DNA of 64,000 bases from Dehalococcoidia bacterium (GCA_964291495.2 OZ219871.1:1592922-1656921); one strand, 5' to 3'. Shown: positions 15,796-49,249, counted from the first letter of the stretch. Notes: generated by a model not told the origin, from the sequence alone. Numbers and translations: made by a program.

Positions 15796-16844
15796 CGCGC
15801 CACCACCAGCGGCGGCCCGGCCTCGGCGCGCCCGATTCGCCAGCAGCCGCCCGTCTGCGCCTCGATCTCGAGCCGCAATGCCTCAGCGCCGTCCGCGGGC
15901 AGCGCGATCAGCAGGCCGCCCGAGGTCTGCGGGTCGTACAGCAGATCGATGATCGCGTCGGACGGATCGCCCTCGATTCGGACGCGATCGCCGAGGCCGT
16001 CGCGGTTGCGCGCGCCGCCGCCCGTCGCGCCGCCGAGTTCGGCGAAGCGCTCCGCGCCGGGCAGCAGCGGCAGCGCGGCGAGGTCGAGGGCGAGCGTGAC
16101 GCCGCTCTGCGAGGCGATCTCGGCGGCGTGGCCGGCGAGCCCGAAGCCCGTCACGTCCGTCATCGCGTGCACGCCCGCCGCCCGCGCGAGGTGCGCGGCG
16201 TGGCGGTTGAGCTGCGTCATCGAGGCGACCGCGGCCTCGAGGCCTTCCTCGAAGCCGTCGCGCTGCTGCCCGGCGGCGCTCATCACGATGCCGGTGCCGA
16301 GCGGCTTGGTCAGCAGCAGCGCGTCGCCGGGCTGCGCGCCACTGGTCCGGATCACGGCGTCCGGGTGGATCACGCCCATCACGGACAGCCCGTACTTCGG
16401 CTCCGCGTCGATCACCGTGTGGCCGCCGGCGATCACGCCGCCGGCCTCGGCGACGGCGTCCGCGCCGCCTCGGAAGATCTCGGCGAGCAGCGAGGGGTCG
16501 AGGTCGTCCGGGAAGGCGGCGATGTTCAGCGCGAGGCGCACCTCGCCGCCCATCGCGTAGACGTCGGACATCGCGTTCGCAGCGGCGATGCGGCCGTAGT
16601 CGTAGGGGTCGTCGACGACCGGCGGGAAGAAGTCGAGCGTCTGGATCACCGCGAGATCGTCGCTCAGCCGGTAGATCGCGGCGTCATCCGGGCGCGCGAG
16701 GCCGACGAGCAGCTCCGGGTGCTCGTTCGCGGCGAACGTCTCCTGCAGCGGGCGCAGCACCTGCGCCAGGGTCGAGAGACCCAGCTTGCCCGCTCAGCCG
16801 CCGCAGGATGCGAGGTCGGTGAGCCGAATCTGCTCCCGAGTCAC
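15792..16844 (-). CDS. selD: Selenide, water dikinase SelD, selenocysteine-containing (UGA at 16796-16794, residue 17)
   Basis: Reading through TGA gives MTREQIRLTDLASCGGUAGKLG, the canonical SelD N-terminus; DDAA, TLDFFPP, AANAMSDVYAMGG, DVTGFGL, DPQTSGGLL. Confidence 0.95.
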
Positions 16845-31293: not shown

Positions 31294-31318
31294 ATAGCAG
31301 ACGGAAGGACCACGCCCG

Positions 31319-32173: not shown

Positions 32174-34689
32174 CCGCCGACCTCGAGCGCCTCGCGGGGG
32201 TGCTCGAAGGAGAACTCCGCTCGGGCTGCCGCGACACGCTCGTCGAGGGAGGGCTCGACGAGCTGTTGCGCCGCCAGGCGCGCGACGAGCCGCCGCGCTC
32301 ACCGCTGCTGCGGATGGTCGCGGCACTCCCCGCAGCCGGGTACCGCTCGCTCGACGCCGAGGGGCGGAGGCAGTGGCTGCGCCGAGCACGCGCGACGATC
32401 GCGCAGGAACAGGCCCGCGCCTCGAATGGCTCGCCGCCGGCCCGCCCTCGCAAGCGCGCCCCGGCCGCGACTGCCGAGGGCGCCGCGCCGCGCAGCAAGC
32501 CCGCGCGCCGGAAGCCGCCGCCCGACCCGATCCCCGAGGGCGAGGCCGCCCTCGAGTGGCCGATCGCGCGCGCCGGGACGCGGCTCGGGGCGAAGAACCT
32601 GGAGCGCCTCGAACGGCTCGGCCTCGCGACCGTCGGTGACGCGCTGCGCCACTACCCGCACCGCTTCCACGACTTCTCCGTGACCGTGCCGATCGCCGCG
32701 CTGCGCGTCGGCGAGGAGCAGACGGTGCGCGGCACCGTCGACCGTGCGCGCCCGGTGCGGATGGGCCGCGGCGGCCGCATGCAGGTCTGCGAGGCGATGA
32801 TCAGCGACGAGACCGGCGCGCGGCTGCGCGTCGTCTGGTTCAACCAGCCGTGGCTCGCCTCGCAGCTCCCGGCGGGCACCGAGATCGCGCTCTCCGGGAC
32901 GGTCAAGGCCTACCGGGGCCGCCCGACGATCGACAACCCCGCCTTCGAGAAGCTTGGCGGCGAGCAGCGCGAGACGGGCCGCCTGGTGCCGGTCTACCCC
33001 TCGACGCAGGGGCTGGCGCAGCGAACGCTCCGCACGACGATCGCCGGGCTGCTCGATCGCTTTGCCGATCGGCTGCCGGAGACGCTGCCCGAGGAGCTGC
33101 GCGCGAAGCACGATCTGCCCGGCATCGTCGAGGCCACGCGGCAGATGCACTACCCCGACAGCAAGGCGGCGCTCGACGTCGCGCGGCGGCGCATCGCCTT
33201 CGACGAGCTGCTCGCGATCCAGATCGGCGTCGTGCGGCGCAAGCGCGAGTGGCGCTCGCTCGGCGACGCGCCTGCCTTCGCCGGCCGTGAGGCTATCGAG
33301 GCCTTCCTCGGAACGCTGCCGTTCGAGCTGACCAAGGCGCAGCGGGCCGCCCTTGACGCGATGCTCGAGGATCTCGCGCGGGAGCAGCCGATGGCGCGGC
33401 TGCTGCAAGGGGATGTCGGATCGGGCAAGACGGTCGTCGCCCTCGCGGCGATGATCGGCGCGGTCGCCGCGGGCCACCAGGCCGTCCTGATGGCGCCCAC
33501 CGAGGTGCTCGCCGAGCAGCACTTCCGCACGATCTGCGGCGTGCTCTCGGGCGAGCCCGAGCCGCCGCTCAACGGTGTCGTCAGCCTGCCCTTCCTGCCG
33601 CTCCCGCTCCGCGTCGTCCTGCTCACCGGCTCGACGCGCGCGAAGGAGCGCCGCGACGCCCTCGAGGCGATCCGCCACGGTGGCGCGAACCTGATCGTCG
33701 GCACGCACGCGCTGATCCAGCAGGGCGTCGAGTTCCAGCGGCTCGGCCTCGCCGTCGTCGACGAGCAGCACCGCTTCGGCGTGATGCAGCGCTCCGCGCT
33801 GCGCCAGCCCGAGCGCTCGGGCGACGAGGGCGTCGAGGCCGCCTCGACCGCGCACCTGCTGGTGATGACCGCCACGCCGATCCCGCGCTCGCTCGCGCTC
33901 ACGATCTACGGCGACCTCGATCTCACGGTGATCGACGAGCTGCCGCCCGGCCGCACGCCGATCGAGACCACGTGGCTGCCGCCGCACGACCGCGGCGAGG
34001 CCTTCGCCGCGCTGCGCGCCGAGGTCGAGGCGGGCCGCCAGGGCTTCGTGATCTGCCCGCTCGTGGAGGGCTCGGACGCCGTCGTCTCGCGCGCGGCCAC
34101 CGAGGAGTACGAGCGGCTCTGCCGCGAGCAGTTCCCGGACCTCGCGGACCGCATCGCGCTGCTGCACGGGCGCATGTCCGGCCGCGACAAGGACGCCGTG
34201 ATGCAGCGCTTCGCGCGGGGCGAGGCCTCAATCCTCGTCTCGACCGCCGTCGTGGAGGTCGGCATCGACGTGCCGAACGCGACGGTGATGCTGATCGAGG
34301 GGGCGGACCGCTTCGGACTCTCGCAGCTGCACCAGTTCCGCGGGCGTGTCGGGCGCGGCGAGCACCCCTCGACCTGCTACCTGCTGGCGGACGATCCCTC
34401 GCCCGAGGCGCAGGAGCGGCTCTCGCTGGTGGCGCGCAACCGCGACGGGTTCGCGCTCGCGCAGGCGGACCTGGAGCTGCGCGGGCCGGGCGAGCTGTTC
34501 GGCACGCGCCAGGCGGGGACGCCCTCGCTGCGCGTCGCCTCGCTGCTCGATGCGCGCCTGATCGCCACCACCCGCGTCGAGGCGGAGGCGCTGCTCGAGG
34601 CGGATCCGCAGCTCGCCGCCCCACCGCACGCCGCGCTGCGCACCCTCGTCGAGCGCGCCGAGGCGGGCCTCGTCGCGGAGGCGCACTGA
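32170..34689 (+). CDS. recG: ATP-dependent DNA helicase RecG
   Basis: RLLQGDVGSGKT, MAPTEVLAEQH, DEQHRFG, MTATPIPRSL, QLHQFRGRVGRG. Confidence 0.97.
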   Translation: MTADLERLAGVLEGELRSGCRDTLVEGGLDELLRRQARDEPPRSPLLRMVAALPAAGYRSLDAEGRRQWLRRARATIAQEQARASNGSPPARPRKRAPAATAEGAAPRSKPARRKPPPDPIPEGEAALEWPIARAGTRLGAKNLERLERLGLATVGDALRHYPHRFHDFSVTVPIAALRVGEEQTVRGTVDRARPVRMGRGGRMQVCEAMISDETGARLRVVWFNQPWLASQLPAGTEIALSGTVKAYRGRPTIDNPAFEKLGGEQRETGRLVPVYPSTQGLAQRTLRTTIAGLLDRFADRLPETLPEELRAKHDLPGIVEATRQMHYPDSKAALDVARRRIAFDELLAIQIGVVRRKREWRSLGDAPAFAGREAIEAFLGTLPFELTKAQRAALDAMLEDLAREQPMARLLQGDVGSGKTVVALAAMIGAVAAGHQAVLMAPTEVLAEQHFRTICGVLSGEPEPPLNGVVSLPFLPLPLRVVLLTGSTRAKERRDALEAIRHGGANLIVGTHALIQQGVEFQRLGLAVVDEQHRFGVMQRSALRQPERSGDEGVEAASTAHLLVMTATPIPRSLALTIYGDLDLTVIDELPPGRTPIETTWLPPHDRGEAFAALRAEVEAGRQGFVICPLVEGSDAVVSRAATEEYERLCREQFPDLADRIALLHGRMSGRDKDAVMQRFARGEASILVSTAVVEVGIDVPNATVMLIEGADRFGLSQLHQFRGRVGRGEHPSTCYLLADDPSPEAQERLSLVARNRDGFALAQADLELRGPGELFGTRQAGTPSLRVASLLDARLIATTRVEAEALLEADPQLAAPPHAALRTLVERAEAGLVAEAH

Positions 34690-34730
34690 CGGTGGCCGCA
34701 GCTCGCGGACGGTAGCGGAGCGCATCCCTC

Positions 34731-35062
34731 CGGTCCCCTCTCCCCGAGGGAGAGGGTCAGGGTGAGGGAGGATCCGCCCGCTGGAGTTCGTTGCGCCGTC
34801 GGGGCTTTCGATGGGGCGCGGGAGTCCTCCCCCTCACCCCCGCCCTCTCCCCAGGGAGAGGGGGCCGGATCGCTCATGGGCGGTTCCCCAACCCCGTCAT
34901 TCCGGCGAAAGCCGGAATCCAGCCGAGCCGCGCAGCGCGCTCGTCCGACGCCCGTAGGGCAGGAGCTCACGGGGGCGCAACAACCGATCGAGGTGGGGAG
35001 CATCCGCGGGCGAGCCCCCTCACCCCCCACCCTCTCCCCAGGGAGAGGCGGCCGGATCGCTC
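34731..35062. repeat. Mosaic REP-like repeat cluster R4
   Basis: Three CCCTCTCCC..GGGAGAGG modules and GTCATTCCGGCGAAAGCCGGAATCCAG at 34896-34922; between convergent genes. Confidence 0.9.
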
Positions 35063-35077
35063 ATGCGCGGTTGCCCC

Positions 35078-36493
35078 CTACCCCCCGTTGGCGCGCGAGG
35101 CGTACCAGCTGCGGGCGGCGGCGAGGGCGCGCGCGCCGCGATCGTAGCTCTCGAAGCTGGCGATGCCCTGCTCGGCGAGCATCCCGGAGATCTCGCGGAT
35201 CGCCTCGGCGTGGGCCAGCGGCTTGGGCGAGTGAAGCAGCGCGATGTGCGGCTTCGCGGAGCGCTCCTTCGAGCGCACCAGCGCCTCCACCAGCTCCTCC
35301 AGCAGCTCGCGGTCCGGGTCGTCCTGGGGCCGCGGGCGGATCTGCATCACGACCGCGTCGATGTTCGTGTCGCGGTCGAGGATGCCGAAGATCTGCTCCA
35401 GCTCGGTGCGGTTCGAGCCCATGTCGATCGGGTTGCGGAAGCTCGCGCCGACGAGGCTGAACCACTCCTCGAGCTGCGCGTAGGACTCGTCCGTCAGCGT
35501 CGGCACGCGCAGCCCGGCCGTGGAGAAGGCGTCCGCCATCGCCACCGACTGCCCGCCGGATCCGCCCGCGATGCCGACGCCGTCGCCCGTGAAGGGCGAG
35601 ATCAGCGTCAGCGCCTTGAGGATGTCGACCAGTTCGGTGAGGTTGCGCGCCTGCAGCGCGCCCGCTTGGCGGCAGGCGGCGTCCCAGACCTCCGTCGACC
35701 CGGCCAGCGAGGCGGTGTGCGAGCGCGTGGCGCGCCCGCCATCCTCGGTGCGGCCGCCCTTCCAGAGCACCACGGGCTTGTGGCGCGTCGTCTCGCGCAG
35801 CGTGCGGAAGAAGCGCGGCCCGTCCTGCAGGCCCTCGACGTACATCGCGAGGATGTCGGTGTTGGGGTCGCCGGCGAAGTACTCGAGGTAGTCGGCGTTC
35901 TCCAGCACGATGCCGTTGCCGAAGCTGACGGCCTTGCCGAGCAGGACGCCGGCGTCGTGGGAGGCCTCGATCAGGTCGCCGGTGTGCGCGCCGCTCTGCG
36001 CGGCGAAGCTGATCCGGCCCTCGAAGCCCGAGGGCTGGTTGGGGCCGAAGCGCACGCCGACCCCGGGGTTGTAGAGGCCCATGCAGTTCGGCCCGATCAG
36101 CGCGAGGCCGGAGTCGCGCGCCAGCTCGGTGAGCGTCGCCTGCAACTCGACGCCGTCCGCGGTGTCGGTCTCGGAGAAGCCCGAGGTGAAGAACGCCGCC
36201 CCCGCCACGTCCTTCTCGACGCAGTGCCGCAGGATGAACGGGGCGACGTTGCGCGGCACGGCGACGAGCACGAAGTCGATCTCGTCGGGGATCTCGAGGA
36301 GGCTCGAGTAGTTGGGGATGCCCATCTCCTCGATGTTCGGGATCTCGTTGGGGTCGACCTGCACGGAGTAGACGGGGCCCTGGAAGGTCTCCATGCTCTT
36401 CAGCCAGCGGTAGTTGCGGATCTTGGCGTCGCCGACCACCGCGACGGTGCGCGGATTGATCGTGCGGTCCAGCCGTTCGCGTTCGACCCTCAT
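35078..36493 (-). CDS. Acyl-CoA synthetase (NDP-forming) alpha-type CoA-binding protein
   Basis: P.TVAVVG, GF.E, IGPNCMG, QSGA, SFGN, KGG.T..G.RA..SHTASLAG, NPID; no ATP-grasp domain. Confidence 0.85.
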   Translation of the reverse strand: MRVERERLDRTINPRTVAVVGDAKIRNYRWLKSMETFQGPVYSVQVDPNEIPNIEEMGIPNYSSLLEIPDEIDFVLVAVPRNVAPFILRHCVEKDVAGAAFFTSGFSETDTADGVELQATLTELARDSGLALIGPNCMGLYNPGVGVRFGPNQPSGFEGRISFAAQSGAHTGDLIEASHDAGVLLGKAVSFGNGIVLENADYLEYFAGDPNTDILAMYVEGLQDGPRFFRTLRETTRHKPVVLWKGGRTEDGGRATRSHTASLAGSTEVWDAACRQAGALQARNLTELVDILKALTLISPFTGDGVGIAGGSGGQSVAMADAFSTAGLRVPTLTDESYAQLEEWFSLVGASFRNPIDMGSNRTELEQIFGILDRDTNIDAVVMQIRPRPQDDPDRELLEELVEALVRSKERSAKPHIALLHSPKPLAHAEAIREISGMLAEQGIASFESYDRGARALAAARSWYASRANGG

Positions 36494-36497
36494 GCCT

Positions 36498-37400
36498 CTA
36501 CCTCCCTGCGTCGGCCGCCGCCGCCGCGCGCTTCGCCCGGTCGGCCTCGCCGATCGCCCTCATCTTCGCCAGCACCTCGGACCCGTCGGCCGGCACGATG
36601 CCGGACAGGTAACGGTCGAGGAACAGCGCCCCGGTGTTCATGCCATGGCGGCCCATCGTTCGCGAGAGATCGAACGAGTGCGGCTGCCCGGCGAGGATCA
36701 GCAGCTCCGTCGCTACGCCCGCCTCGCGCAGCGCCTCGTACATCAGCGTGCTCTGCTCCACGGGGACGGTCGCGTCGTCCGAGCCGTGGATCAGCGCCGT
36801 CGGCGGGTACGCCCCCGTGACGTAGCTGAGCGGGCTGGCGGCGTCGATCTGCTCGCCTGTGGGGTGCTCGCCGAGCAGGACGTCGATCGGGCTGAAGCCG
36901 TCCTCCGAGCGCCACAGCCGCGCCGGCCCGTAGTAGGCGACGACGGTCGCGACGTCGGTGCCCGCGCCGGGGTTACCGCCCTCGCCCTCCCAGGCCGGGT
37001 CGTTCTGCGTGCCGCCGGCGAAGAGCGCGAGGTGCGCGCCGGCCGAGTGCCCCCAGACGGCGATGCGCTCGCGGTTGATGTCGAGCTCGTCGGCGCTGGC
37101 GCGCATCCAGCGTAGCGCCGTCTTGATGTCGTGGATCTGCGCGGGCCAGGCAGCCTCCGACACGAGGCGGTACTCGCAGGTGACGCAGAGGTAGCCGCGC
37201 CGCCCGAGCATCAGCCCGTACCACTTGAGCTGCTCGCGATCGCCCATCTGGAAGCCGCCACCGTGGATCAGCAGCACCGCCGGCCGCGTCTCGATGTGCG
37301 CGGGCGGTCGGTAGATGTCGACGAGCAGCTCGCGATCGCCGCCGTGGCCGACCGGCACGGCCTCCTCGATCGTGACCAGGCCCTCGCTGGATTCGCTCAC
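36498..37400 (-). CDS. Alpha/beta hydrolase (HSL/BD-FAE-like esterase)
   Basis: HGGGF, EYRL, GHSAG, HGSDD.TVP, His near C-terminus; GTG start at 37400 inferred. Confidence 0.85.
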   Translation of the reverse strand: MSESSEGLVTIEEAVPVGHGGDRELLVDIYRPPAHIETRPAVLLIHGGGFQMGDREQLKWYGLMLGRRGYLCVTCEYRLVSEAAWPAQIHDIKTALRWMRASADELDINRERIAVWGHSAGAHLALFAGGTQNDPAWEGEGGNPGAGTDVATVVAYYGPARLWRSEDGFSPIDVLLGEHPTGEQIDAASPLSYVTGAYPPTALIHGSDDATVPVEQSTLMYEALREAGVATELLILAGQPHSFDLSRTMGRHGMNTGALFLDRYLSGIVPADGSEVLAKMRAIGEADRAKRAAAAADAGR

Positions 37401-37516
37401 GTAGCGGCCTTCCCATCGACCCGGCGGCACGGCGTCCGCGCCGGCGGTCAGGCTACAGCATGGCGGGCTGGCGGGGCATGGCTGGCATGATGTGCGGGCG
37501 GGTGAGGAGGACGGCG

Positions 37517-38104
37517 ATGACGCAGCAGGGGAGTGAAGCGCCTCGACGCGACGTGCTGTCCTCGTTCTGGTCGCCGCTCTGCGCGATCGGCGCGCGCGGC
37601 CTCGGGGCGGGCGCGCCGCCCGGGGCAGTACTGAACGCACAGATCTGCGTCTCCGTCTTCGGCGCCTCGATCGTGCCGGAGCGGCCGCGCGTGCTCGTCT
37701 CGCTCTCGAAGACGAACTACACGCACGAGCTGGTGATCGCCTCGGGCACGCTCTCCGTCACCGCGCTCGCGGCCGGGCAGCTTCCGTTGCTCGAGCCGCT
37801 CGGCCTGCGATCCGGTCGCGACGGCGACAAGCTCGCCGGCCTCGAGGTCGCGCTGACCGAGGCCGGCGACCCGTGGTTCCCCGGCTGCGTCGGCTACCTC
37901 GGTTGCGAGGTGATCGAGCGCCACGACCTCGGCGACGCGACGGCCTTCCTCTGTGCCGTGCGCGAGCGCGAGACGCTGAGCGCGGAGCCGGCGCTGCGCT
38001 GGCCGGACGCGCAGCAGGTCGTGGGGGCGGAGTTCCTGGAGCGCTGGGCGGAGAAGAGCCGCCGCGAGCAGGCCGCCGCGCGCGCCTCGATGCGCTGGGT
38101 GTAG
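37517..38104 (+). CDS. Flavin reductase-like (split-barrel) protein
   Basis: AS..PE.PRV.VSL.K.NYTHEL, GLRSGRDGDK, CEV...D.GD. Confidence 0.75.
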   Translation: MTQQGSEAPRRDVLSSFWSPLCAIGARGLGAGAPPGAVLNAQICVSVFGASIVPERPRVLVSLSKTNYTHELVIASGTLSVTALAAGQLPLLEPLGLRSGRDGDKLAGLEVALTEAGDPWFPGCVGYLGCEVIERHDLGDATAFLCAVRERETLSAEPALRWPDAQQVVGAEFLERWAEKSRREQAAARASMRWV

Positions 38105-38127
38105 GCGTCGGCGCGGGCGCGAGCCGC

Positions 38128-38649
38128 TCAGCCTCCGAACAGGCGGCCTATGAGGTCGGAGCGGTCGATGTTGGCGACGTGCGTGACGAACTCATCCTGA
38201 AGCTTGTACGCGATCACCAGCACCCAGATCACGACCGCGTGCCGAGCGAAGAACGCGGGCGCAGCGTCCCGCTTGAAGAACAGGATCGTGGCGTAGACGA
38301 GGAACAGCGGCTCGAGGAAGTTCGGGAACAGGAAGAACACGATCTCGTTGCTCGTGATGAAGAACAGCGCTTGCCCGACCGTACGCAGCGCGAACAGGGC
38401 GATGACGGCTCGACGCAGCGGCCACTTCCACGCCGCGACCACCATGCAGACATAGGTCACGTAGTCCGCCGACTTGTCGACGTTCTGGTACACGGGGTCG
38501 GAGAGCCCGAGCGGGATCAGGAGATCGCCGTCCAGGGAGTCGAGGACGAAGTTGGCCCACCCGGCGAGGAACGGGAACGGGATGAGCAGCAAGGGCAGCA
38601 AGTACTTGGCCACGACGATCAGTACGGAGTCGACGCTGGACTCAGCCAT
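38128..38649 (-). CDS. Hypothetical membrane protein with degenerate CDP-alcohol phosphotransferase-like motif
   Basis: Hydrophobic, several TM segments; DSLDG...DKSAD. Confidence 0.65.
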   Translation of the reverse strand: MAESSVDSVLIVVAKYLLPLLLIPFPFLAGWANFVLDSLDGDLLIPLGLSDPVYQNVDKSADYVTYVCMVVAAWKWPLRRAVIALFALRTVGQALFFITSNEIVFFLFPNFLEPLFLVYATILFFKRDAAPAFFARHAVVIWVLVIAYKLQDEFVTHVANIDRSDLIGRLFGG

Positions 38650-38869
38650 GGTCGCCTCGACTGCAACACGGGCAGCTACGCGGTCTGTGCACTTGAGGGG
38701 ACGCTACCATGCCCGCTCCCGGCCACCAATCCGCCGGTCCTCCGCAGTTCACTCAGGCAACGCGCCGCCCGCGCGCTGCGAGGCGTCGCTCAGGCGCGCG
38801 GCGCGGTATCATGCGCGGGAACAGGCAGACGACGCGCCTTCCGGGGCGCGCTATGTGAAGGAGTACAGC

Positions 38870-41161
38870 GTGGTCGCGACCGAGCGAAACAAGGTCATCG
38901 GCACCCGGCCGGTACGCCCGGACGGCGCGGACAAGGTCACCGGACGGGCCGAGTACGGCGCGGACGTGCGCCTGCCCCGCATGCTCTACGGCCGCGTGCT
39001 GCGCAGCCCGCACGCGCACGCCCGCATCCTCAGCATCGACGCCTCGAAGGCGCTCGCCCTCGAGGGCGTGCACGCCGTCGTCACCAACGAGGACTTCCCG
39101 CGGCTCGGCGACGACCTCGTCGACCTCGGCGAGACGTTCGCGCCGTTCAAGTACATCCGCGACAACGTGCTCGCCTCGGACAAGGCGCTCTACGCCGGAC
39201 ACGCGGTCGCCGCCGTCTGCGCCAGCGACCCGCACATCGCCGAGGACGCGCTCGCGCTGATCGAGGTGGAGTACGAGCCGCTCGGCACGGTGCTGAGCGT
39301 CCACGAGGCGATGGCGGACGGCGCGCCGCTCGTGCACGAGCACATGCACACCACGGAGATGGCCGCCCGCTTCGTGCCCAGCGACAACCGCTCCGAGGAC
39401 TCTTCGAACGTCGCCAGCCACCTGCGCTTCGAGCTGGGCGACGTCGAGCAGGGCTTCGCCGAGGCCGACATCGTCCTCGAGCGTGAGTTCGAGACCTCGA
39501 TGGCGCACCAGGGCTACATCGAGCCGCACAACGGCACGGCGTTCTGGAACAACGACGGCGAGATCACGGTCTGGGTCAGCACGCAGGGCCCGTTCGCCGT
39601 GCGCATGCAGGTCGCCAAGCTGTGCGACGTGCCGGTCTCGAAGGTGAAGGTCGTCCCGATGGAGATCGGCGGCGGCTTCGGCGGCAAGATCAATACCTAC
39701 ATGGAGCCGATGGCCGCGATCCTCTCGAAGAAGACCGGACGCCCGGTGAAGATGATCATGACGCGCGAGGAGGTGCTGATCGGCACCGGGCCGACCTCGG
39801 CCACCTACGTGCGCTGCAAGATCGGCGCGAAGCGCGACGGCACGATCGTCGCCGGCGAGGCCTATCTCGCCTACGAGGCCGGCGCCTTCCCCGGCTCGCC
39901 CGTCGGCGCGGGCGCGGGCTGCATGTTCTCCTCGTACGACATCCCGAACCTGGTCACCGACGCCTACGACGTGATCACGAACAAGCCGAAGGTTTCCGCC
40001 TACCGCGCGCCCGGCTCGCCGCAGGGCACCTACGCCGTGGAGTCGCTCATCGACGAGCTGGCGGAGCGCCTCGAGCTGGAGCCGATGGAGCTGCGGCTCA
40101 AGAACGCCGCCAGCCAGGGCTCGCGCCGCGTCGATGGCGTCGCGCAGGGCCGGATCGGCTCCGAGGAGGTGATGCGGGCAGCGATGGAGAGCCCGCACTA
40201 CCGCTCCGAGCTGCAGGGCAAGAACCAGGGCCGCGGCGTCTCGATGGGCTTCTGGCACAACGCCGGGATGGAGTCGAGCGCCTACGGCTCGCTCAACGCC
40301 GACGGCACGGCCAGCCTCGTGCTCGGCTCGGTCGACATCGGCGGGCAGCGCGCGGCGCTGGCGATGCAGTTCGCCGAGACGCTCGGCATCAGCTACGAGC
40401 AGGTCAAGCCGCTGGTCGTCGACACCGACTCGGTCGGCTTCAACGGCGTCACCGGCGGCAGCCGCACCACCTTCGCGACCGGCTGGGCCGTGTACGAGGC
40501 GGCGATGGACGTCCGCCGCCAGCTCGAGGAGCGCGCCGCGCAGATCTGGGAGGTCGACCGCGACGACGTCAGCTACGGCGACGACGGCGTGCTGCGCGGC
40601 CCCGCCGGCGATGACGGCGAGGCGCGCTCGATGACCTTCGCCGAGATCTGCGGGAAGCTCGGCGGCAGCGGCGGCATGATCCAGGGCCGCGCCGACGTGG
40701 CGCCCACCACCGTCGGGGCCGCCTTCGGCTGCCACATCGTGGACGTCGAGGTGGACCCGGAGACGGGCAAGGTGGACGTGCTGCGCTACACGGCCGTGCA
40801 GGACGTGGGCACCGCGATCCACCCCTCGTACGTCGAGGGGCAGATCCAGGGCGGGGCCGCGCAGGGCGCGGGCATGGCGCTGACGGAGGAGTACTTCTAC
40901 CGCGAGGATGGGAGCATGGCGAACTCGAGCCTGCTCGACTACCGCATGCCGACGGCGCTCGACCTGCCGGAGATCGAGACGATCCTCGTCGAGGTTCCGA
41001 ACCCCGGGCACCCCTACGGCGTGCGCGGGGTCGGCGAGGTGCCGATCGTGCCGCCGCTGGCGGCGGTCGCGAACGCGATCCACGACGCCACCGACCTGCG
41101 CATCACCTCGCTCCCGGCGTCGCCGCGAGCGCTGCTTGAGCAGCTGCAACCGGAGGAGTAG
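38870..41161 (+). CDS. Xanthine dehydrogenase/CoxL-family molybdopterin-binding subunit
   Basis: DKVTGRA.Y..D, RSPHAHA, IGGGFGGK, AYRAPG, VEGQIQGG, GVGE; AAGGAG RBS before GTG 38870. Confidence 0.92.
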   Translation: MVATERNKVIGTRPVRPDGADKVTGRAEYGADVRLPRMLYGRVLRSPHAHARILSIDASKALALEGVHAVVTNEDFPRLGDDLVDLGETFAPFKYIRDNVLASDKALYAGHAVAAVCASDPHIAEDALALIEVEYEPLGTVLSVHEAMADGAPLVHEHMHTTEMAARFVPSDNRSEDSSNVASHLRFELGDVEQGFAEADIVLEREFETSMAHQGYIEPHNGTAFWNNDGEITVWVSTQGPFAVRMQVAKLCDVPVSKVKVVPMEIGGGFGGKINTYMEPMAAILSKKTGRPVKMIMTREEVLIGTGPTSATYVRCKIGAKRDGTIVAGEAYLAYEAGAFPGSPVGAGAGCMFSSYDIPNLVTDAYDVITNKPKVSAYRAPGSPQGTYAVESLIDELAERLELEPMELRLKNAASQGSRRVDGVAQGRIGSEEVMRAAMESPHYRSELQGKNQGRGVSMGFWHNAGMESSAYGSLNADGTASLVLGSVDIGGQRAALAMQFAETLGISYEQVKPLVVDTDSVGFNGVTGGSRTTFATGWAVYEAAMDVRRQLEERAAQIWEVDRDDVSYGDDGVLRGPAGDDGEARSMTFAEICGKLGGSGGMIQGRADVAPTTVGAAFGCHIVDVEVDPETGKVDVLRYTAVQDVGTAIHPSYVEGQIQGGAAQGAGMALTEEYFYREDGSMANSSLLDYRMPTALDLPEIETILVEVPNPGHPYGVRGVGEVPIVPPLAAVANAIHDATDLRITSLPASPRALLEQLQPEE

Positions 41162-41218
41162 CCGCGGAAGCGGAAGCAACAACGCAGCGGGCCGCCATGG
41201 GGCGGCCCGCTCGCTGTC

Positions 41219-41700
41219 CGACCCCCTCTCCCCGCGGGAGAGGGCGGGGGTGAGGGAGGCGCAGGCCGGACGAGCAGGCGCTGCGCGCCGCTCGGGCCCA
41301 CCCACCCGCCCTCAATGGATGCGGGGCTGCGCCCCGCGCCCGCTTCGTGGGGGCCCCACACCCCCACCCGGAACCATCGAGGGCGCACAACCCATCGAGG
41401 CATGGAGCAGCCGCGGGCGAGCCCCCTCACCCCAACCCTCTCCCCCAGGAGAGGGGGCCGGATCGAGGGCGCCCCCACCTCGGGAAGGCTGTCCGGCCCC
41501 CTCGAGGGCGTCCGCTCCGGCTCCCTCCCCCCTGGCGGGGGAGGGCGGGGGGTGAGGGGGAGCGCGCCCCCGGCGCGCCCTCCGGCTCCGCCGGAGTCCC
41601 CCTCACCCTAACCCTCTCCCGCCGGGGGAGAGGGGATCGGAGGCGCACCCAACCTCCGAGGGCGGATCCGGCCTCTCTCCCCCAGGAGAGGGGGCCGGAC
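41219..41700. repeat. Mosaic REP-like repeat cluster R5 (largest)
   Basis: Five CCCTC..GAGGG hairpin modules, GGGGCTGCGCCCC module and shared linkers; 41300-41375 resembles 59164-59240. Confidence 0.9.
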
Positions 41701-41819
41701 CGAGCGCGCCCCGGCGTGCCCTCCGGCGTCGCCCACGCGCGCGGTTTGACGCGCCCGGCGAGGCGTGACCATCATCGCGGCCCCGCCCGCGCGGCGGGGC
41801 GCGACCGCCGGGAGCGCCG

Positions 41820-43001
41820 ATGACGGCTACGCAACCCGCGCCCACCGTCCTGCCCGATGTCCGCGTCGTCGAGATCGCCTCCGGCGTGGCCGTCGCCTAT
41901 GCGGCGCAGCTGCTCGGCCAGCTTGGCGCCGAGGTGACCCGCATCGAGCCGCCCGAGGGCGACGCGGTGCGCCTCGCCGGACCGTTCCCCGAGGGCCAGC
42001 CGGACGGCTCGCCCGACCTCGACAGCGGGGGCCTGCACCGCTACCTCAACGGCGGCAAGCGCAGCGTCGCGCTCGACCTCGCCTCGGAAGACGACGCCGG
42101 CCTCGCCGCCGGGCTGATCGCCCGCAGCAACCTGCTCGTCGGCGACTGGCGCGAGGGCGGCCTGCTGCCCTTCGACGACCAGGACGCGATGCGCGAGCGC
42201 TTCCCGGAGACGACCTGTGTATCGATCAGCGACTTCGGGATGGACGGGCCGCGCGTCGACTGGCGGGCGGACTCGCTGATCCACGAGGCGCTCTCCGGCA
42301 TCACCTACGTGAGCGGCGCTCCGGACCGCGAGCCGCTCGCGCTCGGCGTCGACGTCGCCGACTATTTCGCGGGGCTGGTGGGCTGGATCTCCTCGCTGAC
42401 TGCGCTCGCGCAGGCGAGCGTCGGCGAGCGGCCCGGCTTCATCGACATCTCGGCGCACGAGGTGATCGGCTCCTCGGACGACCACAGCCTCTCGCTCTAC
42501 GCCGGGACGGGGGCGGTGCGGCGGCGCTTCTACTCACGGGTGCTGGGCGGCTACCCCTCCGACATCATGCCCTGCAAGGGCGGCCACATCTCCTTCGTGA
42601 CGCCGCAGAGCGCGTTCCCGGCGAGGGTCGCCGAGCTGATCGGGCGGCCCGATCTCGTGGACGACCCGCTGCTCAACACGCGCCGCGAGCGCGCCGTGCG
42701 CTGGCGCGAATTCGATGCGCTCGTCGGGCCCTACCTGCAGGCGCACACCCGGGAGGAGCTGCTGCGCCGCTCGGACGAGTTGCACCTCGCGTTCGCGATG
42801 TTGCCCAGCGTCGCCGACCTGCTCGCGGACGAGCACCTGCGCGAGCGCGGCTTCTGGATGGAGGGCCCCGACGGCGAGGACGTGATCGGCCCGCCGCTGC
42901 GCCTCCCGGCCGCGCCGCTGCGGGCGGGGCGGCCCGCGCCCACGCTCGGCTCGTCGAGCGTCGAGGACCTCGACGCCGGCGCTGCGGAGCGGGAGGCCTG
43001 A
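41820..43001 (+). CDS. Family III CoA-transferase (CaiB/BaiF)
   Basis: VRVVE, LGAEV.RIEPPEGD..R, LNGGKRSV.LDL, ISDFG..GP, DY.AG. Confidence 0.88.
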   Translation: MTATQPAPTVLPDVRVVEIASGVAVAYAAQLLGQLGAEVTRIEPPEGDAVRLAGPFPEGQPDGSPDLDSGGLHRYLNGGKRSVALDLASEDDAGLAAGLIARSNLLVGDWREGGLLPFDDQDAMRERFPETTCVSISDFGMDGPRVDWRADSLIHEALSGITYVSGAPDREPLALGVDVADYFAGLVGWISSLTALAQASVGERPGFIDISAHEVIGSSDDHSLSLYAGTGAVRRRFYSRVLGGYPSDIMPCKGGHISFVTPQSAFPARVAELIGRPDLVDDPLLNTRRERAVRWREFDALVGPYLQAHTREELLRRSDELHLAFAMLPSVADLLADEHLRERGFWMEGPDGEDVIGPPLRLPAAPLRAGRPAPTLGSSSVEDLDAGAAEREA

Positions 43002-46699: not shown

Positions 46700-46975
46700 C
46701 GCTCCCACCGGCGGGGGAGAGGGGCGCGTCCCGCCGATGCCCGGCTGGATTCCGGCAGTGGCGTCCCGTCATTCCGGCGAAAGCCGGAATCCAGGCGGGG
46801 GGCAGCGATCGGGAGTTGCGCCCTCGGAAGGCTCGTGCGCCCTTGTGGCGTCCGGTGAGCGCCTCCCTCACCCTCCGCCCTCTCCCTCGGGGAGAGGGGA
46901 CCGGATCTGGCCCCGACAGTCGGGTGCGCCCTCGATGGTTCCGAGCGAGGCGTGGGGGCGCAGCCCCCACAAGGG
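46700..46975. repeat. Mosaic REP-like repeat cluster R6
   Basis: GTCATTCCGGCGAAAGCCGGAATCCAG at 46768-46794, one CCCTCACCC module, GTGGGGGCGCAGCCCCCAC palindrome. Confidence 0.85.
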
Positions 46976-46984
46976 ACGCACGGA

Positions 46985-47701
46985 CTACCCCTCGCCCGCC
47001 AGCGCGGCGTTCTCCGCCAGCACGCGCTCGACGTCCTCGCGGTAGAGCGCGCCGAGCAGCTTGCCGCCCTCGTGGTACCCGCGCGAGGTCACGAGGACGC
47101 TCGGGTGAGGGTTGCGGCTCAGCCGTTCGACGAGGCTGTGCAGGAACGTGTCCGGCTTCTCCGTTGGCGGCTGCGGCTCCATCACGTCGCCGGCCCGGGC
47201 GGCCGGGTCGCCATCGAGGGCGCCGCCGTCGATGCGGCCGAGCAGCACGCCGGAGTCGTCGACCACCGCACAGAGCGGGTCGCCGCTCTCGTCGGTCAAC
47301 GCGCGCGCCTCGCCCAGCGTCGCGTCGGGGCCGCAGGTGGCGGGCACGCGCATCACGTCCAGCGCGCGTCGCCGCCCGGCGCTGCGCCCGGCCAGCGGCA
47401 GGCCCTCCAGCACCCAGTCCGACTTGCCCGGCACGTAGTCGTGGACGGCCTCGAAGCCCAGTTGTTCGAGCCGCGCCGCGGCTCGGGGTGAGGCGTCTCA
47501 TTCGCGATCGTAGCAGTAGACGATGAGCGGCCGATCGCGGCGCAGCGCGCCGACGGTGTCCGGGCCGATCGCCGTGGCGGGGACGTTCACGGCGCCCTCG
47601 AGGTGCTCGTCGGCGTACTCGCGCTCCGGCAGCACGTCCACCAGCTGCGCGCCGTCCGCGAGCAGCGCCCGCAGCTCGTCGCGCTCGATCTGCTTGACCA
47701 T
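46985..47701 (-). CDS. Rhodanese-CBS fusion protein, probable selenoprotein (UGA at 47500-47498, residue 68)
   Basis: ORFs 47498..47701 and 46985..47434 are in one frame separated only by TGA; readthrough gives LIVYCYDRE-U-DASPRAAARLEQLGFEAVHDYVPGKSDW, completing the rhodanese fold, then a CBS pair. Confidence 0.85.
47467..47485 (-). promoter_or_regulatory. Candidate bacterial SECIS element
   Basis: mRNA CGAGCCGC-GGC-GCGGCUCG, 8-bp stem starting 13 nt after the UGA, G first in the loop. Confidence 0.7.
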
Positions 47702-47751
47702 GGGGTTCTCCTCGTGTGTGTCCGTTCGTGGACAGTGTACGGAGCCGGAGC

Positions 47752-47788
47752 TCCCTCACCCTAACCCTCTCCCTCGGGGAGAGGGGAC
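47752..47788. repeat. Single REP-like module R7
   Basis: CCCTCACCCTAACCCTCTCCCTCGGGGAGAGGGGAC. Confidence 0.85.
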
Positions 47789-47800
47789 AGCCGCCGCACC

Positions 47801-49249
47801 TCAGTCCGCCCCCCAGCGCCAGTAGACGGCGATCGCGGAGGCGACGATGGCGGCGGTGAGCAGTAGGCCGGCCTGCAGGCCGTCGATAATCGCGAGCGAG
47901 CGCAGCGGGCTGCCCTCGGCGGCGGCCGTGAGGTTGGCGCCCGCGAAGACGGTGAAGACTGCGCCGGAAACCGCGATGCCGCCCGCCTGCCCGATGCGCC
48001 GCGCCGTCACGATCGCCGCCGAGGCCATGCCGAGCCGCTGCATCGGTACGGAGCCCATGATCGTCGAGTTGTTCGGCGACTGGAACAGCGCCATGCCGAG
48101 CCCGATCAGCGACAGCCTCGCGGCCACGTCCGGCACCGCGGTGCCGCCGTCCGCGAGCGCGAGCAGCGTGATGCCGAGGCTGGACGAGGCGAGGCCGAGC
48201 GGCACGAGCAGCCTCGGCCCGACGCGGTCGGCGAGGCGGCCGGTCAGCGGGGCGAAGACGAACAGCGTGAGCGGCTGCGCGGCGATGATCGCGCCCGCCT
48301 CCAGCGTGCTGAAGCCGCGCGCGCCGACGAGGTAGAAGGGCGTCAGCACCATCACGGCGGCGAAGCCCCAGTAGAAAAGAATCGCCGTGCCGACCGATCC
48401 GCTGAAGGCGCGGATGCGCAGCAGCTCCAGCGACACCACCGGGCTCGCCGCGCGCCGCTCGATCCACACGAACAGCGGCGCGAGCGCCAGGCCGAGGACG
48501 AACAGCGCGATGATCCACGGGCTGTCCCAGCCCCAGGCGTTGCCGCGGTTGACGGCCAGCGTGAGGCTCGCGAGGGAGCCGAAGATCGTGAGCGAACCGG
48601 GGATGTCCAGCCCGCGCTCGCGGCCCTCGGCGGACGTGCTGCGCAGCACCAGCAGCAGCACGGCGGTCAGCGTGACGCTCAGCGGCAGCCGCGTGAGGAA
48701 GATCGCGCGCCAGTCCAGCAGCTCGATGAGCACGCCGCCCAGCACCGGACCGGCGGCGAGGCCGAAGCCGACCGTGCCGCCCATGATGCCGAGCGCCTGC
48801 CCTCGGCGCTCCGGGGGCACGAAGGAGGTGACGATCGCGTTGCCGTTGGAGACGACCATCGAGTTGCCGATGGCCTGTAGCCCTCGCGCCGCCACGAGCG
48901 CGGGCAACGAGGGCGCCGCTGCCGCCGCCAGCAGCGACAGCGCGACGATCGCGTTGCCGCCGACGAAGAAGCGCTTGCGCCCGTAGAGGTCGCCGAGCCG
49001 CCCGAACGGCAGCGCGAGGCCGGTGCCGAGCAGCACAAAGACCAGCATGACCCAGACCACGGCGTCGATCGTCGTCTCGAACTCGGAGGCGAGGGTGGGC
49101 AGCGCGATGTTGACGATCGAGGTGTCCATCGTGCTGAGCAGCACGGAGCCGGCGACGGGCGCGAGCACGAGCCACGGCAGGCGCGGGGCGCGTCGCCGCG
49201 CGACGCCCGAGGCGTCGGCGCTGCGCTGTCCGTCGCTGTCGTCGGGCAT
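47801..49249 (-). CDS. MFS transporter (DHA2/EmrB-QacA type)
   Basis: MDTSIVNIALP, GRLGD.YGRK, ARGLQAIG, GPVLGG, F.SPNN. Confidence 0.9.
   Translation of the reverse strand: MPDDSDGQRSADASGVARRRAPRLPWLVLAPVAGSVLLSTMDTSIVNIALPTLASEFETTIDAVVWVMLVFVLLGTGLALPFGRLGDLYGRKRFFVGGNAIVALSLLAAAAAPSLPALVAARGLQAIGNSMVVSNGNAIVTSFVPPERRGQALGIMGGTVGFGLAAGPVLGGVLIELLDWRAIFLTRLPLSVTLTAVLLLVLRSTSAEGRERGLDIPGSLTIFGSLASLTLAVNRGNAWGWDSPWIIALFVLGLALAPLFVWIERRAASPVVSLELLRIRAFSGSVGTAILFYWGFAAVMVLTPFYLVGARGFSTLEAGAIIAAQPLTLFVFAPLTGRLADRVGPRLLVPLGLASSSLGITLLALADGGTAVPDVAARLSLIGLGMALFQSPNNSTIMGSVPMQRLGMASAAIVTARRIGQAGGIAVSGAVFTVFAGANLTAAAEGSPLRSLAIIDGLQAGLLLTAAIVASAIAVYWRWGAD

What the first reader, a model, noticed from the sequence alone, without database searches (positions are those of the whole stretch)
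46985..47701. Hidden selenoprotein: rhodanese (CxxxxU) fused to a CBS pair, with a SECIS-like hairpin
Seen: two ORFs that the track lists separately are one reading frame broken only by TGA at 47500-47498. Readthrough gives a 238-aa protein: rhodanese domain (LVDVLP..EY..EHL.GAVNVP...LIVYCYDRE-U-DASPRAA..L..LGF..V.DY..GK.DW) followed by two CBS-like motifs. The TGA lies in the active-site loop five residues after the catalytic Cys. A perfect 8-bp hairpin with a G-starting loop begins 13 nt downstream. The gene has its own -10 box (TACACT) and GAGGAG RBS. Known: bacterial Sec insertion needs UGA plus an adjacent 3' SECIS and SelD, and a Sec-type selD is in this window; Sec-containing rhodaneses have been predicted computationally. 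Inference: a Cys/Sec two-centre sulfur- or selenium-transferase whose activity may be gated by adenylate binding to the CBS pair. I know of no functional description of this fusion.
Basis: partly seen in the sequence, partly recalled or inferred. Interest (0 to 1): 0.82.

Follow-up and report, generated by a model that had tools for sequence, protein, structure and literature searches.

The report
Unannotated selenocysteine rhodanese–CBS protein
Two small genes listed separately are really one gene for a sulfur-handling enzyme domain joined to a sensor module, in which a stop codon is read as the rare amino acid selenocysteine, and gene-calling software splits this family in many related bacteria.

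Summary
Reading TGA at 47500-47498 through joins a 67-aa and a 149-aa ORF into one 238-aa protein with a rhodanese domain and a CBS pair.

It is a real selenoprotein gene, for five reasons:
- The genome has selA, selB, tRNA-Sec and a Sec-type selD.
- The TGA sits at the same codon in 29 loci from 23 genomes of 11 families of the class, down to about 40% identity.
- 69 of 73 uninterrupted homologues have Cys there.
- Codon periodicity continues past the TGA.
- A hairpin that meets the published bacterial SECIS constraints is kept in 28 of 28 Sec forms, with frozen synonymous sites. Only 3 of 82 Cys forms keep it.

The motif is YCxDxx[C/U]DxSxR. Two paralogues have UxxxxU.

No NCBIfam model claims the family. 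A 2026 review lists five rhodanese selenoprotein forms and none has a CBS pair. Databases hold the 3' fragments as "CBS domain-containing protein".

The function is inferred, not shown: a Cys63/Sec68 redox or sulfur/selenium-transfer centre. Nucleotide gating by the CBS pair is speculative.

The parts
46985..47701 (-). Complete coding sequence of the 238-aa rhodanese-CBS selenoprotein, from ATG 47701-47699 to stop TAG 46987-46985
47498..47500 (-). In-frame TGA, selenocysteine codon 68
   Evidence: It is at the same codon in 29 loci. It aligns to Cys in 69 of 73 uninterrupted homologues.
47513..47515 (-). TGC, Cys63, the rhodanese catalytic-loop cysteine
   Evidence: It is invariant in the alignments. 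It is TGA in two paralogues of G345.
47467..47485 (-). SECIS hairpin: 8-bp stem and 3-nt loop GGC, 12 nt after the TGA, inside the codons for R73-E79
   Evidence: It meets the four bSECIS constraints quoted.
47411..47683 (-). Rhodanese homology domain (residues 7-97)
   Evidence: Pfam PF00581 at 48.5 bits. The fold matches BH2092 3NHV with TM 0.71-0.74.
46994..47365 (-). CBS pair (about residues 113-236), including the conserved Cys123 codon at 47335-47333
   Evidence: Pfam PF00571 with two stretches. The fold matches AcuB, CBSX and other CBS pairs. Cys123 is conserved in 94% of 106 members.
47708..47713 (-). Shine-Dalgarno-like GAGGAG, six nt upstream of the ATG
   Evidence: Read directly from the sequence. 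AGGAG-type sequences stand upstream in genus orthologues.
15891..16826 (-). selD (selenophosphate synthetase), itself Sec-containing, with TGA at 16796-16794. It is part of the Sec machinery and lies in the same window.
   Evidence: TIGR00476 at 368 bits with one TGA. The translation reads SCGGUAGK.

Best explanation
Window 47701-46985(-) is one gene for a 238-aa selenoprotein. It has an N-terminal rhodanese domain whose seven-residue active-site loop carries Cys63 and selenocysteine 68 (motif Y-C-x-D-x-x-U-D-x-S-x-R), followed by a CBS pair.

Shown by comparison: UGA68 is recoded by SelB and tRNA-Sec. Recoding is directed by a 7-8-bp GC-rich hairpin with a G[G/U]N triloop, placed 20 nt after the UGA inside the codons for R73-E79.

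Inferred: Cys63 and Sec68 work as a pair. Cys63 is the usual rhodanese persulfide- or perselenide-carrying nucleophile. Sec68 is a resolving or relay centre that forms a transient selenenylsulfide, which a thiol reductant recycles. A third conserved cysteine (Cys123, at the start of the CBS pair) may take part.

The CBS pair is a regulatory or dimerising module, and its ligand is unknown.

The confidence given is for the identity as a genuine selenoprotein gene. The redox-pair mechanism alone I put at about 0.4, and nucleotide gating at about 0.2.
For: - **Sec machinery.** The genome has SelA (424.9 bits), SelB (301.7 bits, above cut-off), tRNA-Sec (77 bits, cut-off 47) and SelD with a Sec codon. 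SelA was found in 21 of 22 other genomes with a TGA form. The one without it is 71% complete.
- **TGA conservation.** All 13 of 13 full-length matches among 61 relatives carry TGA at codon 68. In a sample of 401 genomes of the class, 22 of 24 matches carry it and 2 have Cys.
- **Cys/Sec pair.** 69 of 73 uninterrupted Rhodanese+CBS homologues have Cys at the aligned column. So do all 80 genome loci found with a Cys-containing pattern, in Actinomycetota, Chloroflexota and Acidobacteriota.
- **Translation beyond the TGA.** Among 10 genus orthologues, differences at codon positions 1/2/3 in residues 69-89 are 0.057/0.000/0.236. The coding regions on either side show the same pattern.
- **SECIS.** 28 of 28 Sec forms keep at least 7 loop-proximal pairs, and 23 of 28 keep all 8. 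Only 3 of 82 Cys forms keep all 8, at equal G+C (0.722 against 0.726). Synonymous sites are frozen in Sec forms: A74 is GCC in 28/28, A75 is GCG in 28/28, R77 is CGG in 27/28, and residue 76 ends in G in 28/28. The adjacent S71 and P72 each use 7 codons. RNAalifold finds the same 7 pairs, kept in 27 of 27. Loop, stem, spacing and energy meet the bSECIS constraints.
- **TGA is an ordinary stop here.** It ends 1531 of 2809 long open frames.
- **Mechanism hints.** Two paralogues have UxxxxU. One homologue is fused to an AhpC/TSA domain. The nearest solved rhodanese, BH2092, has CxxxxC at the aligned positions. The AF2 model has pLDDT 94.5 and pTM 0.83.
Against: - There is no direct evidence of selenium incorporation or of expression. 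No RNA run was listed.
- The stem shows no double compensatory change (0 of 7 pairs). Its support is conservation at synonymous sites, and the Sec forms are kin.
- The hairpin overlaps strongly conserved codons (RAAxRLE).
- Three database homologues show Trp at the column. Their DNA was not seen.
- For the mechanism, the model's coordinates could not be read, so the Cys63-Sec68-Cys123 distances are unknown.
- The loop is acidic (D65 99%, D69 100%), which is unlike anion-binding rhodanese loops.
- No conserved neighbouring gene was found across 111 loci, by a crude open-frame clustering.
- The CBS ribose-binding Asp is only 65% conserved.
Confidence: 0.9

Rival explanations
1. It is a pseudogene or two separate genes. 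A nonsense mutation split a rhodanese-CBS gene, or a 67-aa fragment and an independent 149-aa CBS protein are the true products.
For: Gene callers report it that way. The window's own 149-aa ORF and 39 further database clusters are 3' fragments, some named "CBS domain-containing protein". A few orthologues do look damaged: L025 has an extra TAG, and L052 and L056 are frameshifted.
Against: The same TGA is kept in 29 loci down to about 40% identity. Residues 69-89, which would be non-coding under this reading, evolve with codon periodicity and hold the invariant D69, S71 and R73. A 67-aa product would lack half of the rhodanese fold. Cys homologues are continuous.
Confidence: 0.02
2. The TGA is read through, but not as selenocysteine. 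It could be read as Trp, Cys or Gly by near-cognate suppression or a local code change.
For: Three of 73 database homologues have W at the column. These could equally be TGA called under another code, since they lie on contigs of about 1 kb.
Against: The full Sec machinery is present. A SECIS-type hairpin is kept only in the TGA forms. Cys, the Sec analogue, stands in 69 of 73 homologues. TGA is the commonest stop of long open frames in this genome.
Confidence: 0.03
3. It is a selenoprotein, but the C63-x-D65-x-x-U68-D69 loop is a metal- or metalloid-binding site rather than a persulfide-relay or redox pair. It might bind a thiophilic metal or arsenite- or selenite-type ligand, so the protein would be a sensor, chaperone or reductase for that ligand.
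For: Two invariant or near-invariant Asp residues flank the two chalcogen residues. The loop has seven residues like Cdc25/Acr2-type CX5R loops, which is a recalled comparison and not a tool result. Sec is a metal ligand in other selenoenzymes, which is established knowledge. An MFS transporter gene lies directly upstream in the window.
Against: The MFS neighbour is not conserved beyond close relatives. No arsenic or metal genes were seen nearby. The only fusion partner found is a thiol peroxidase-type domain.
Confidence: 0.15

Closest known systems
Rhodanese-like selenoprotein forms 1-5 in the 2026 review PMC13188914. I saw the table passages and the SECIS section, not the whole text. Form 1 is UxxS, forms 2 and 4 are UxxG, form 3 is CxU (NF041203), and form 5 is TsoB with UxxxxU (NF045694).
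   Same: All have a rhodanese domain with Sec in or next to the catalytic loop. TsoB has the same four-residue spacing between its two chalcogen residues, and two paralogues found here are UxxxxU. This protein's U-D-A-S also fits the bare pattern UxxS.
   Different: This protein scores 26.0 bits against NF041203 (cut-off 115) and 25.9 bits against NF045694 (cut-off 805). It has no DsbD part. Its motif is C-x4-U, not CxU or UxxG. It carries a CBS pair, and 'CBS' occurs 0 times in that review. I could not test whether form 1 has Sec at the equivalent loop position, because I could not reach its sequence.
Cys-type 'CBS/Rhodanese-like domain-containing protein' of Actinomycetota, Chloroflexota and Acidobacteriota, including Streptomyces species
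   Same: Same two-domain architecture and the same invariant Y-C-x-D-x-x-C-D-x-S-x-R loop, at 35-47% identity over the full length.
   Different: These have Cys (TGC 73, TGT 9) instead of Sec, and as a rule no hairpin (3 of 82 keep it). No function is given in any source name seen.
BH2092 of Bacillus halodurans (PDB 3NHV, 3O3W), a structural-genomics single-domain rhodanese
   Same: It is the best sequence and fold match to the rhodanese half (E 8.8e-10, TM 0.71-0.74). Its YCWGPAC motif aligns to YCYDREU.
   Different: It has no CBS pair and no Sec, its loop lacks the two Asp residues, and the entry title gives no function.
Stand-alone and fused CBS pairs (AcuB with AMP/ADP/ATP, Arabidopsis CBSX1/2, MgtE and OpuCA CBS modules)
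   Same: The fold of residues 113-236 matches at TM 0.5-0.8 on the target.
   Different: Sequence identity is 12-24%. The ligand-binding residues are only partly kept. No solved chain covers both domains, and the best TM on the query is 0.48.

Membership tests
Bacterial selenoprotein gene (SelB/SECIS-dependent UGA recoding) | In-frame UGA with conserved coding sequence on both sides | tested here: met
   Codon periodicity holds in residues 69-89.
Bacterial selenoprotein gene (SelB/SECIS-dependent UGA recoding) | Cys in homologues at the position of the UGA (Cys/Sec pair), and the UGA conserved in orthologues | tested here: met
   69 of 73 homologues have Cys. 29 loci have TGA at the same codon.
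Bacterial selenoprotein gene (SelB/SECIS-dependent UGA recoding) | [quoted passage not shown] | tested here: met
   The loop is GGC, GUG, GGU or GUU. The stem has 7-8 bp. The spacing is 20 nt. The mean MFE is -14.1 kcal/mol. It is kept in 28 of 28 Sec forms against 3 of 82 Cys forms.
Bacterial selenoprotein gene (SelB/SECIS-dependent UGA recoding) | selA, selB, selC (tRNA-Sec) and selD in the genome | tested here: met
Bacterial selenoprotein gene (SelB/SECIS-dependent UGA recoding) | Selenium shown in the protein | not testable with these tools
   This needs 75Se labelling or mass spectrometry.
Rhodanese homology domain (PF00581) | Profile match above the gathering score, the fold, and a Cys at the start of the active-site loop after the central strand | tested here: met
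   48.5 bits against a cut-off of 22.2. TM is 0.71-0.74 to 3NHV. Strand 59-62 is followed by C63, and a helix starts at residue 70.
Rhodanese homology domain (PF00581) | Sulfurtransferase activity (persulfide on the loop Cys) | not testable with these tools
   This needs an enzyme assay.
CBS pair / Bateman module (PF00571) | Two tandem CBS repeats with the CBS-pair fold | tested here: met
   Two stretches at 37.5 bits against a cut-off of 24. The fold matches many CBS pairs.
CBS pair / Bateman module (PF00571) | Adenosyl-ligand binding residues (ribose-binding Asp and Thr/Ser after the last strand of each repeat; the motif is recalled) | tested here: inconclusive
   The CBS2 Asp (D223) is kept in 65% of 106 members. 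CBS1 has no such Asp (the numbers printed there are +2).
NF041203 rhodanese_LYCAU (seleno)protein (review form 3) | Profile score above 115 bits and a CxU motif | tested here: not met
   26.0 bits. The motif here is C-x4-U.
NF045694 TsoB rhodanese/DsbD fusion-like selenoprotein (review form 5) | Profile score above 805 bits, a DsbD-like part and a UxxxxU motif | tested here: not met
   25.9 bits, over the rhodanese part only. The protein has 238 aa and no DsbD part. The spacing is the same, but the window protein has Cys at the first position.

The most novel reading that the evidence does not exclude
This is a sixth, so far uncatalogued form of rhodanese selenoprotein, and the first selenoprotein joined to a CBS sensor module. 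Its loop holds a selenenylsulfide centre, or a diselenide centre in the UxxxxU paralogues. That centre turns the rhodanese fold from a simple sulfur carrier into a redox enzyme or selenium/sulfur relay, with output set by a small-molecule ligand of the CBS pair. It is widespread in Dehalococcoidia-type Chloroflexota, including relatives seen in runs labelled sponge metagenome. Annotation splits it systematically.
Probability: 0.25. Interest if true: 0.75.

Novelty: new variant of a known kind. Interest (0 to 1): 0.58.

Why it matters
Rhodanese-type selenoproteins are known only from computation, and none has a defined reaction. This family offers a well-defined case to study:
- a strict Cys/Sec pair, and Sec/Sec variants, in one loop;
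- a confident structural model;
- cultivable Cys-form relatives in Streptomyces;
- an unusually uniform SECIS that could serve as a search model.

It also exposes a systematic annotation error. 40 of the 120 best database clusters are 3' fragments filed as CBS proteins. Selenoproteome counts for this class of Chloroflexota are therefore too low. A CBS module on a selenoenzyme would link selenium or sulfur chemistry to a metabolite signal, which has not been described in the papers I could search.

Tried and rejected
- **Rfam.** No family reached significance over 46700-47900 at E up to 10. Bacterial SECIS elements are not represented there in a way that matched.
- **Neighbour conservation.** Open frames of 90 aa or more from 111 loci were clustered by BLASTP. 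Apart from the gene itself and frames overlapping it, no cluster was shared by more than 12 loci. The method is crude in 70% G+C DNA, so this is weak evidence that there is no fixed operon partner.
- **Longer fused forms.** None was found at E of 1e-10 or lower. The tool itself calls this weak evidence.
- **Tree of 106 family members.** The tree was FastTree, midpoint-rooted, and held 27 Sec and 79 Cys forms. Rows shorter than 180 aa were dropped. 24 Sec forms make one clade and 3 fall among Cys forms. Fitch parsimony gives a minimum of 4 changes. Supports were not examined, so I draw no conclusion on the number or direction of Sec/Cys switches.
- **Sequencing runs.** No RNA holder was listed. 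Only contigs could be laid. Contigs of four runs cover the codon, and none of the 40 difference rows shown falls on 47498-47500, but 82 rows were not shown, so this is not proof.
- **G002 partial match at a contig end.** It diverges before the motif and is uninformative.
- The paper PMC12013261 (Haft and Tolstoy 2025, TsoB) is not held.
- **Not reachable.** I could not obtain the sequence of review form 1 (WP_010941598.1), any TsoB sequence, the DNA of the three Trp-bearing homologues, or the coordinates of the structural model.
- **Complex prediction.** I did not use it, because I make no binding claim.
- **Supplements.** Supplements of the cited papers were not seen. They may list candidate selenoproteins that include this family.

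Full report
**What is in the sequence**

On the minus strand, an ATG at 47701 opens a frame that meets TGA at 47500-47498 after 67 codons. The same frame then continues to TAG at 46987-46985. The ORF list shows the two pieces as separate ORFs of 67 aa and 149 aa, the second from a GTG at 47434. Reading TGA as U gives a 238-residue protein with one recoded codon, U68.

Pfam places a Rhodanese domain at residues 7-97 (48.5 bits, cut-off 22.2) and a CBS pair in the C-terminal half (37.5 bits, cut-off 24, two stretches). The active-site region reads V-Y-C63-Y-D-R-E-U68-D-A-S-P-R-A-A.

Twelve nucleotides after the TGA there is a perfect 8-bp hairpin, CGAGCCGC-GGC-GCGGCUCG, at 47485-47467. The 60 nt from the UGA fold to -28.2 kcal/mol with z = -2.49, and 4 of 200 shuffles fold as well. 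GAGGAG lies six nt before the ATG.

**Is the organism able to insert selenocysteine?**

Yes. The window lies in a 3.08-Mb genome of 71% G+C. That genome holds:
- SelA (424.9 bits);
- SelB (301.7 bits, above the curated cut-off);
- a tRNA-Sec (77 bits, gathering score 47);
- SelD (368.3 bits) with one in-frame TGA.

The SelD gene lies in this window at 15891-16826(-). Its TGA at 16796-16794 gives SCGGUAGK.

TGA is not reassigned genome-wide. It ends 1531 of 2809 open frames of 400 codons or more.

**Is the TGA conserved, and what do homologues have there?**

Among 61 related genomes, 13 full-length matches were found, the window's own included. Ten are in the genus at 84-100% identity, and three are in other genera or families at 42-54%. 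All 13 have TGA at codon 68. A fourteenth, partial match at a contig end (G002) diverges before the motif and says nothing.

In an even sample of 401 genomes of the class, 18 genomes gave 24 matches at E of 1e-20 or lower. Of these, 22 carry the TGA and 2 have Cys. Together that is 29 TGA loci in 23 genomes of 11 GTDB families.

Some genomes hold two or three paralogues. Two paralogues of G345 have TGA at both loop positions (Y-U-M-D-x-x-U-D-M-S). A few copies look damaged: L025 has an extra TAG at codon 19, and L052 and L056 are frameshifted.

SelA was found in 21 of the 22 other TGA-form genomes. The exception is 71% complete. Both Cys-form genomes of the class also have SelA.

In the protein collection, 73 uninterrupted homologues of 195 aa or more were aligned. 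The column under U68 holds Cys in 69, Trp in 3 and Asp in 1. The Asp protein also lacks Cys63. The three Trp proteins come from contigs of about 1 kb. They may be TGA codons called under another code, but I could not see their DNA.

A scan of species-representative genomes used the pattern YC[YWA]DxxCD[LM]S, which by construction finds only Cys forms. It returned 80 loci in Solirubrobacterales, Acidimicrobiia, Streptomyces species, several classes of Chloroflexota and Acidobacteriota. Two of these loci are identical to the two Cys forms of the class sample. Their record titles name Dehalococcoidia and Chloroflexota, from which I infer the class of the window's organism.

**Is the stretch after the TGA translated?**

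Among the ten genus orthologues, pairwise differences per site at codon positions 1/2/3 are:
- 0.036/0.038/0.169 before the TGA;
- 0.057/0.000/0.236 in residues 69-89, between the TGA and the GTG of the 149-aa ORF;
- 0.063/0.074/0.209 afterwards.

Residues 69-89 hold D69, S71 and R73, which are conserved in 99-100% of 106 family members. The two-gene and pseudogene readings therefore fail.

**Is the hairpin a SECIS or a by-product of conserved codons?**

The stem lies in the codons for R73-A-A-x-R-L-E79, which are conserved in the protein. I therefore compared Sec forms with Cys forms at the same positions. L056 fell out of this count because its motif has Ser for Tyr62.

- All 28 Sec forms keep at least the seven loop-proximal pairs, and 23 keep all eight.
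- Of 82 Cys forms, 3 keep all eight.
- G+C of the stretch is the same in the two sets (0.722 and 0.726).
- Restricted to sequences with R-A-A-x-R-L, the counts are 22 of 27 against 3 of 51. Fisher p is 1e-11, overstated because the sequences are kin.

The synonymous sites tell the same story. In Sec forms A74 is GCC in 28/28, A75 is GCG in 28/28, R77 is CGG in 27/28 and residue 76 ends in G in 28/28. Yet S71 and P72, just upstream in the same sequences, use seven codons each. In Cys forms all these sites vary.

RNAalifold on 27 distinct Sec-form segments predicts the same seven pairs. All are kept in 27 of 27, with one-sided changes only (G-C to G-U, G-U to A-U) and no double compensatory change.

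The element meets the four bacterial SECIS constraints quoted in the 2026 review:
- a loop of 3 nt (allowed 3-9) beginning with G followed by G or U;
- a stem of 7-8 bp (allowed 4-16);
- 20 nt from the UGA to the loop (allowed 16-37);
- a mean folding energy of -14.1 kcal/mol (-7.5 or lower required).

The three Cys forms that keep the whole stem include two of the nine TGT forms (L072, L090). TGT is one substitution from TGA, so these may be recent Sec-to-Cys changes with a fossil SECIS. This is an inference.

**What the protein looks like**

AlphaFold2 with a 25-sequence alignment gives a confident two-domain model (pLDDT 94.5, pTM 0.83). Strand 59-62 leads into the loop C63-D69, and a helix runs from residue 70 to 80.

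The rhodanese half matches BH2092 of Bacillus halodurans (3NHV; TM 0.71-0.74 on the target). In that protein YCWGPAC aligns with YCYDREU. The second half matches CBS pairs such as AcuB with AMP, ADP or ATP, Arabidopsis CBSX1/2, and the MgtE and OpuCA modules. No solved chain covers both domains, and the best TM on the query is 0.48.

Across 106 members the following residues are conserved in 94-100%: Y62, C63, D65, C/U68, D69, S71, R73, G155 and a third cysteine, C123, at the start of the CBS pair. The usual ribose-binding Asp of CBS2 is kept in 65%, and CBS1 has none (the numbers printed there are two too high).

One homologue carries an extra C-terminal AhpC/TSA domain with its Cys. No longer fusions were found.

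The neighbours in the window are an MFS transporter upstream and an ABM-family monooxygenase downstream. Further out lie an HTH_3 regulator, an acyl-CoA dehydrogenase and a SnoaL-like protein. None is conserved beyond close relatives, by a crude test.

**How it most likely works**

Shown by comparison: UGA68 is decoded as Sec with the help of the in-frame hairpin.

Inferred: Cys63 is the rhodanese nucleophile, and Sec68, five residues on in the same loop, is a second reactive centre. The strict Cys/Sec pairing, the UxxxxU paralogues, the TsoB family with the same spacing and the peroxiredoxin-type fusion all point to thiol/selenol redox or relay chemistry. The likely form is a transient selenenylsulfide resolved by a thiol reductant. 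Simple thiosulfate cleavage is less likely.

The acidic loop argues against a classical anion-binding rhodanese site. It keeps a metal- or metalloid-binding reading alive, at about 0.15. The CBS pair is probably regulatory or dimerising, and adenylate binding is not supported beyond the fold.

**Comparison with what is known**

The 2026 review of prokaryotic selenoproteomes lists five rhodanese-like selenoprotein forms: UxxS, UxxG, CxU (NF041203), UxxG, and TsoB with UxxxxU (NF045694). 'CBS' and 'Chloroflex' each occur 0 times in its text. The 2022 review lists three forms. Earlier surveys list rhodanese-related sulfurtransferase selenoproteins without a CBS pair (passages only).

This protein is far below the cut-offs of both NCBIfam selenoprotein models (26.0 against 115, and 25.9 against 805). 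No other NCBIfam model reaches its cut-off either.

Two full-text searches bear on prior description. One for selenoprotein + Chloroflexota + rhodanese found 0 papers. One for five phrases naming a rhodanese-CBS fusion found 2 papers that share only the phrase 'rhodanese domain fused'. The Atlas names the Cys clusters only 'CBS/Rhodanese-like domain-containing protein'.

By the field's own rule, the same domain with a different Sec site or motif counts as a different form. On that rule this is a further form. I could not compare it with form 1, whose bare pattern UxxS it also fits.

**Annotation consequence**

Of the 120 best database clusters, 40 are 3' fragments:
- 22 are close relatives that start at or near the G-K-S-D-W motif;
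- 18 are more distant and start at the Met of U-D-M-S-P-R-A-A, two codons after the TGA.

Where a source gives a name, it is 'CBS domain-containing protein' or 'hypothetical protein'.

**Verdict**

This is a genuine, unannotated selenoprotein gene of a family that is common in this class of Chloroflexota. It has a well-defined SECIS and a Cys/Sec two-centre rhodanese loop joined to a CBS pair. Its reaction and the role of the CBS pair are unknown. I rate it a new variant of a known kind, with interest 0.58.

Noticed in passing
window 46878-46898 and 47765-47785 (both on the minus strand); also 34736, 41224, 50406, 57516, 59440: A REP-like palindrome, CCCTCTCCCCGAGGGAGAGGG, brackets the gene on both sides. 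There are 7 copies in the window against 0 in 100 shuffles, and 74 in a plus-strand scan of the genome. Contigs of runs labelled sponge metagenome pile up on it to summed depths of 30,000-42,000, so it is a very abundant intergenic repeat in such samples.
   Followed up: partly
window 15891-16826 (-), TGA at 16796-16794: selD is itself a selenoprotein gene (SCGGUAGK). A hairpin with its loop about 20 nt after the UGA follows it, with a different sequence from the rhodanese one.
   Followed up: partly
L053 (G345:C310) and L057 (G345:C145): Two paralogues have TGA at both loop positions (YUMDxxUDMS), giving a UxxxxU motif like TsoB. G345 and G193 each hold three paralogues.
   Followed up: partly
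L072, L090 (TGT codon) and L082 (TGC codon): Three Cys forms keep the complete 8-bp hairpin. Two of them use TGT, which is one substitution from TGA. This may be a fossil SECIS after a Sec-to-Cys change.
   Followed up: no
L025 (G009), L052 (G367), L056 (G127:C60), L034 (G002): Some orthologues look damaged or are cut. L025 has an extra in-frame TAG at codon 19. L052 and L056 have frameshifts. L034 is a contig-end fragment that diverges before the motif.
   Followed up: no
window 47335-47333 (Cys123): A third cysteine, at the start of the CBS pair (consensus D-V-P-T-C), is conserved in 94% of 106 family members. Its distance to the active-site loop could not be read from the model.
   Followed up: no
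P0026 (395 aa, one metagenome contig): This is a Rhodanese-CBS-AhpC/TSA triple fusion whose peroxiredoxin-type Cys is kept.
   Followed up: partly
P0027, P0030, P0038: Three database homologues from contigs of about 1 kb show Trp where the family has Cys or Sec. They may be TGA codons called under another genetic code. Their DNA was not seen.
   Followed up: no
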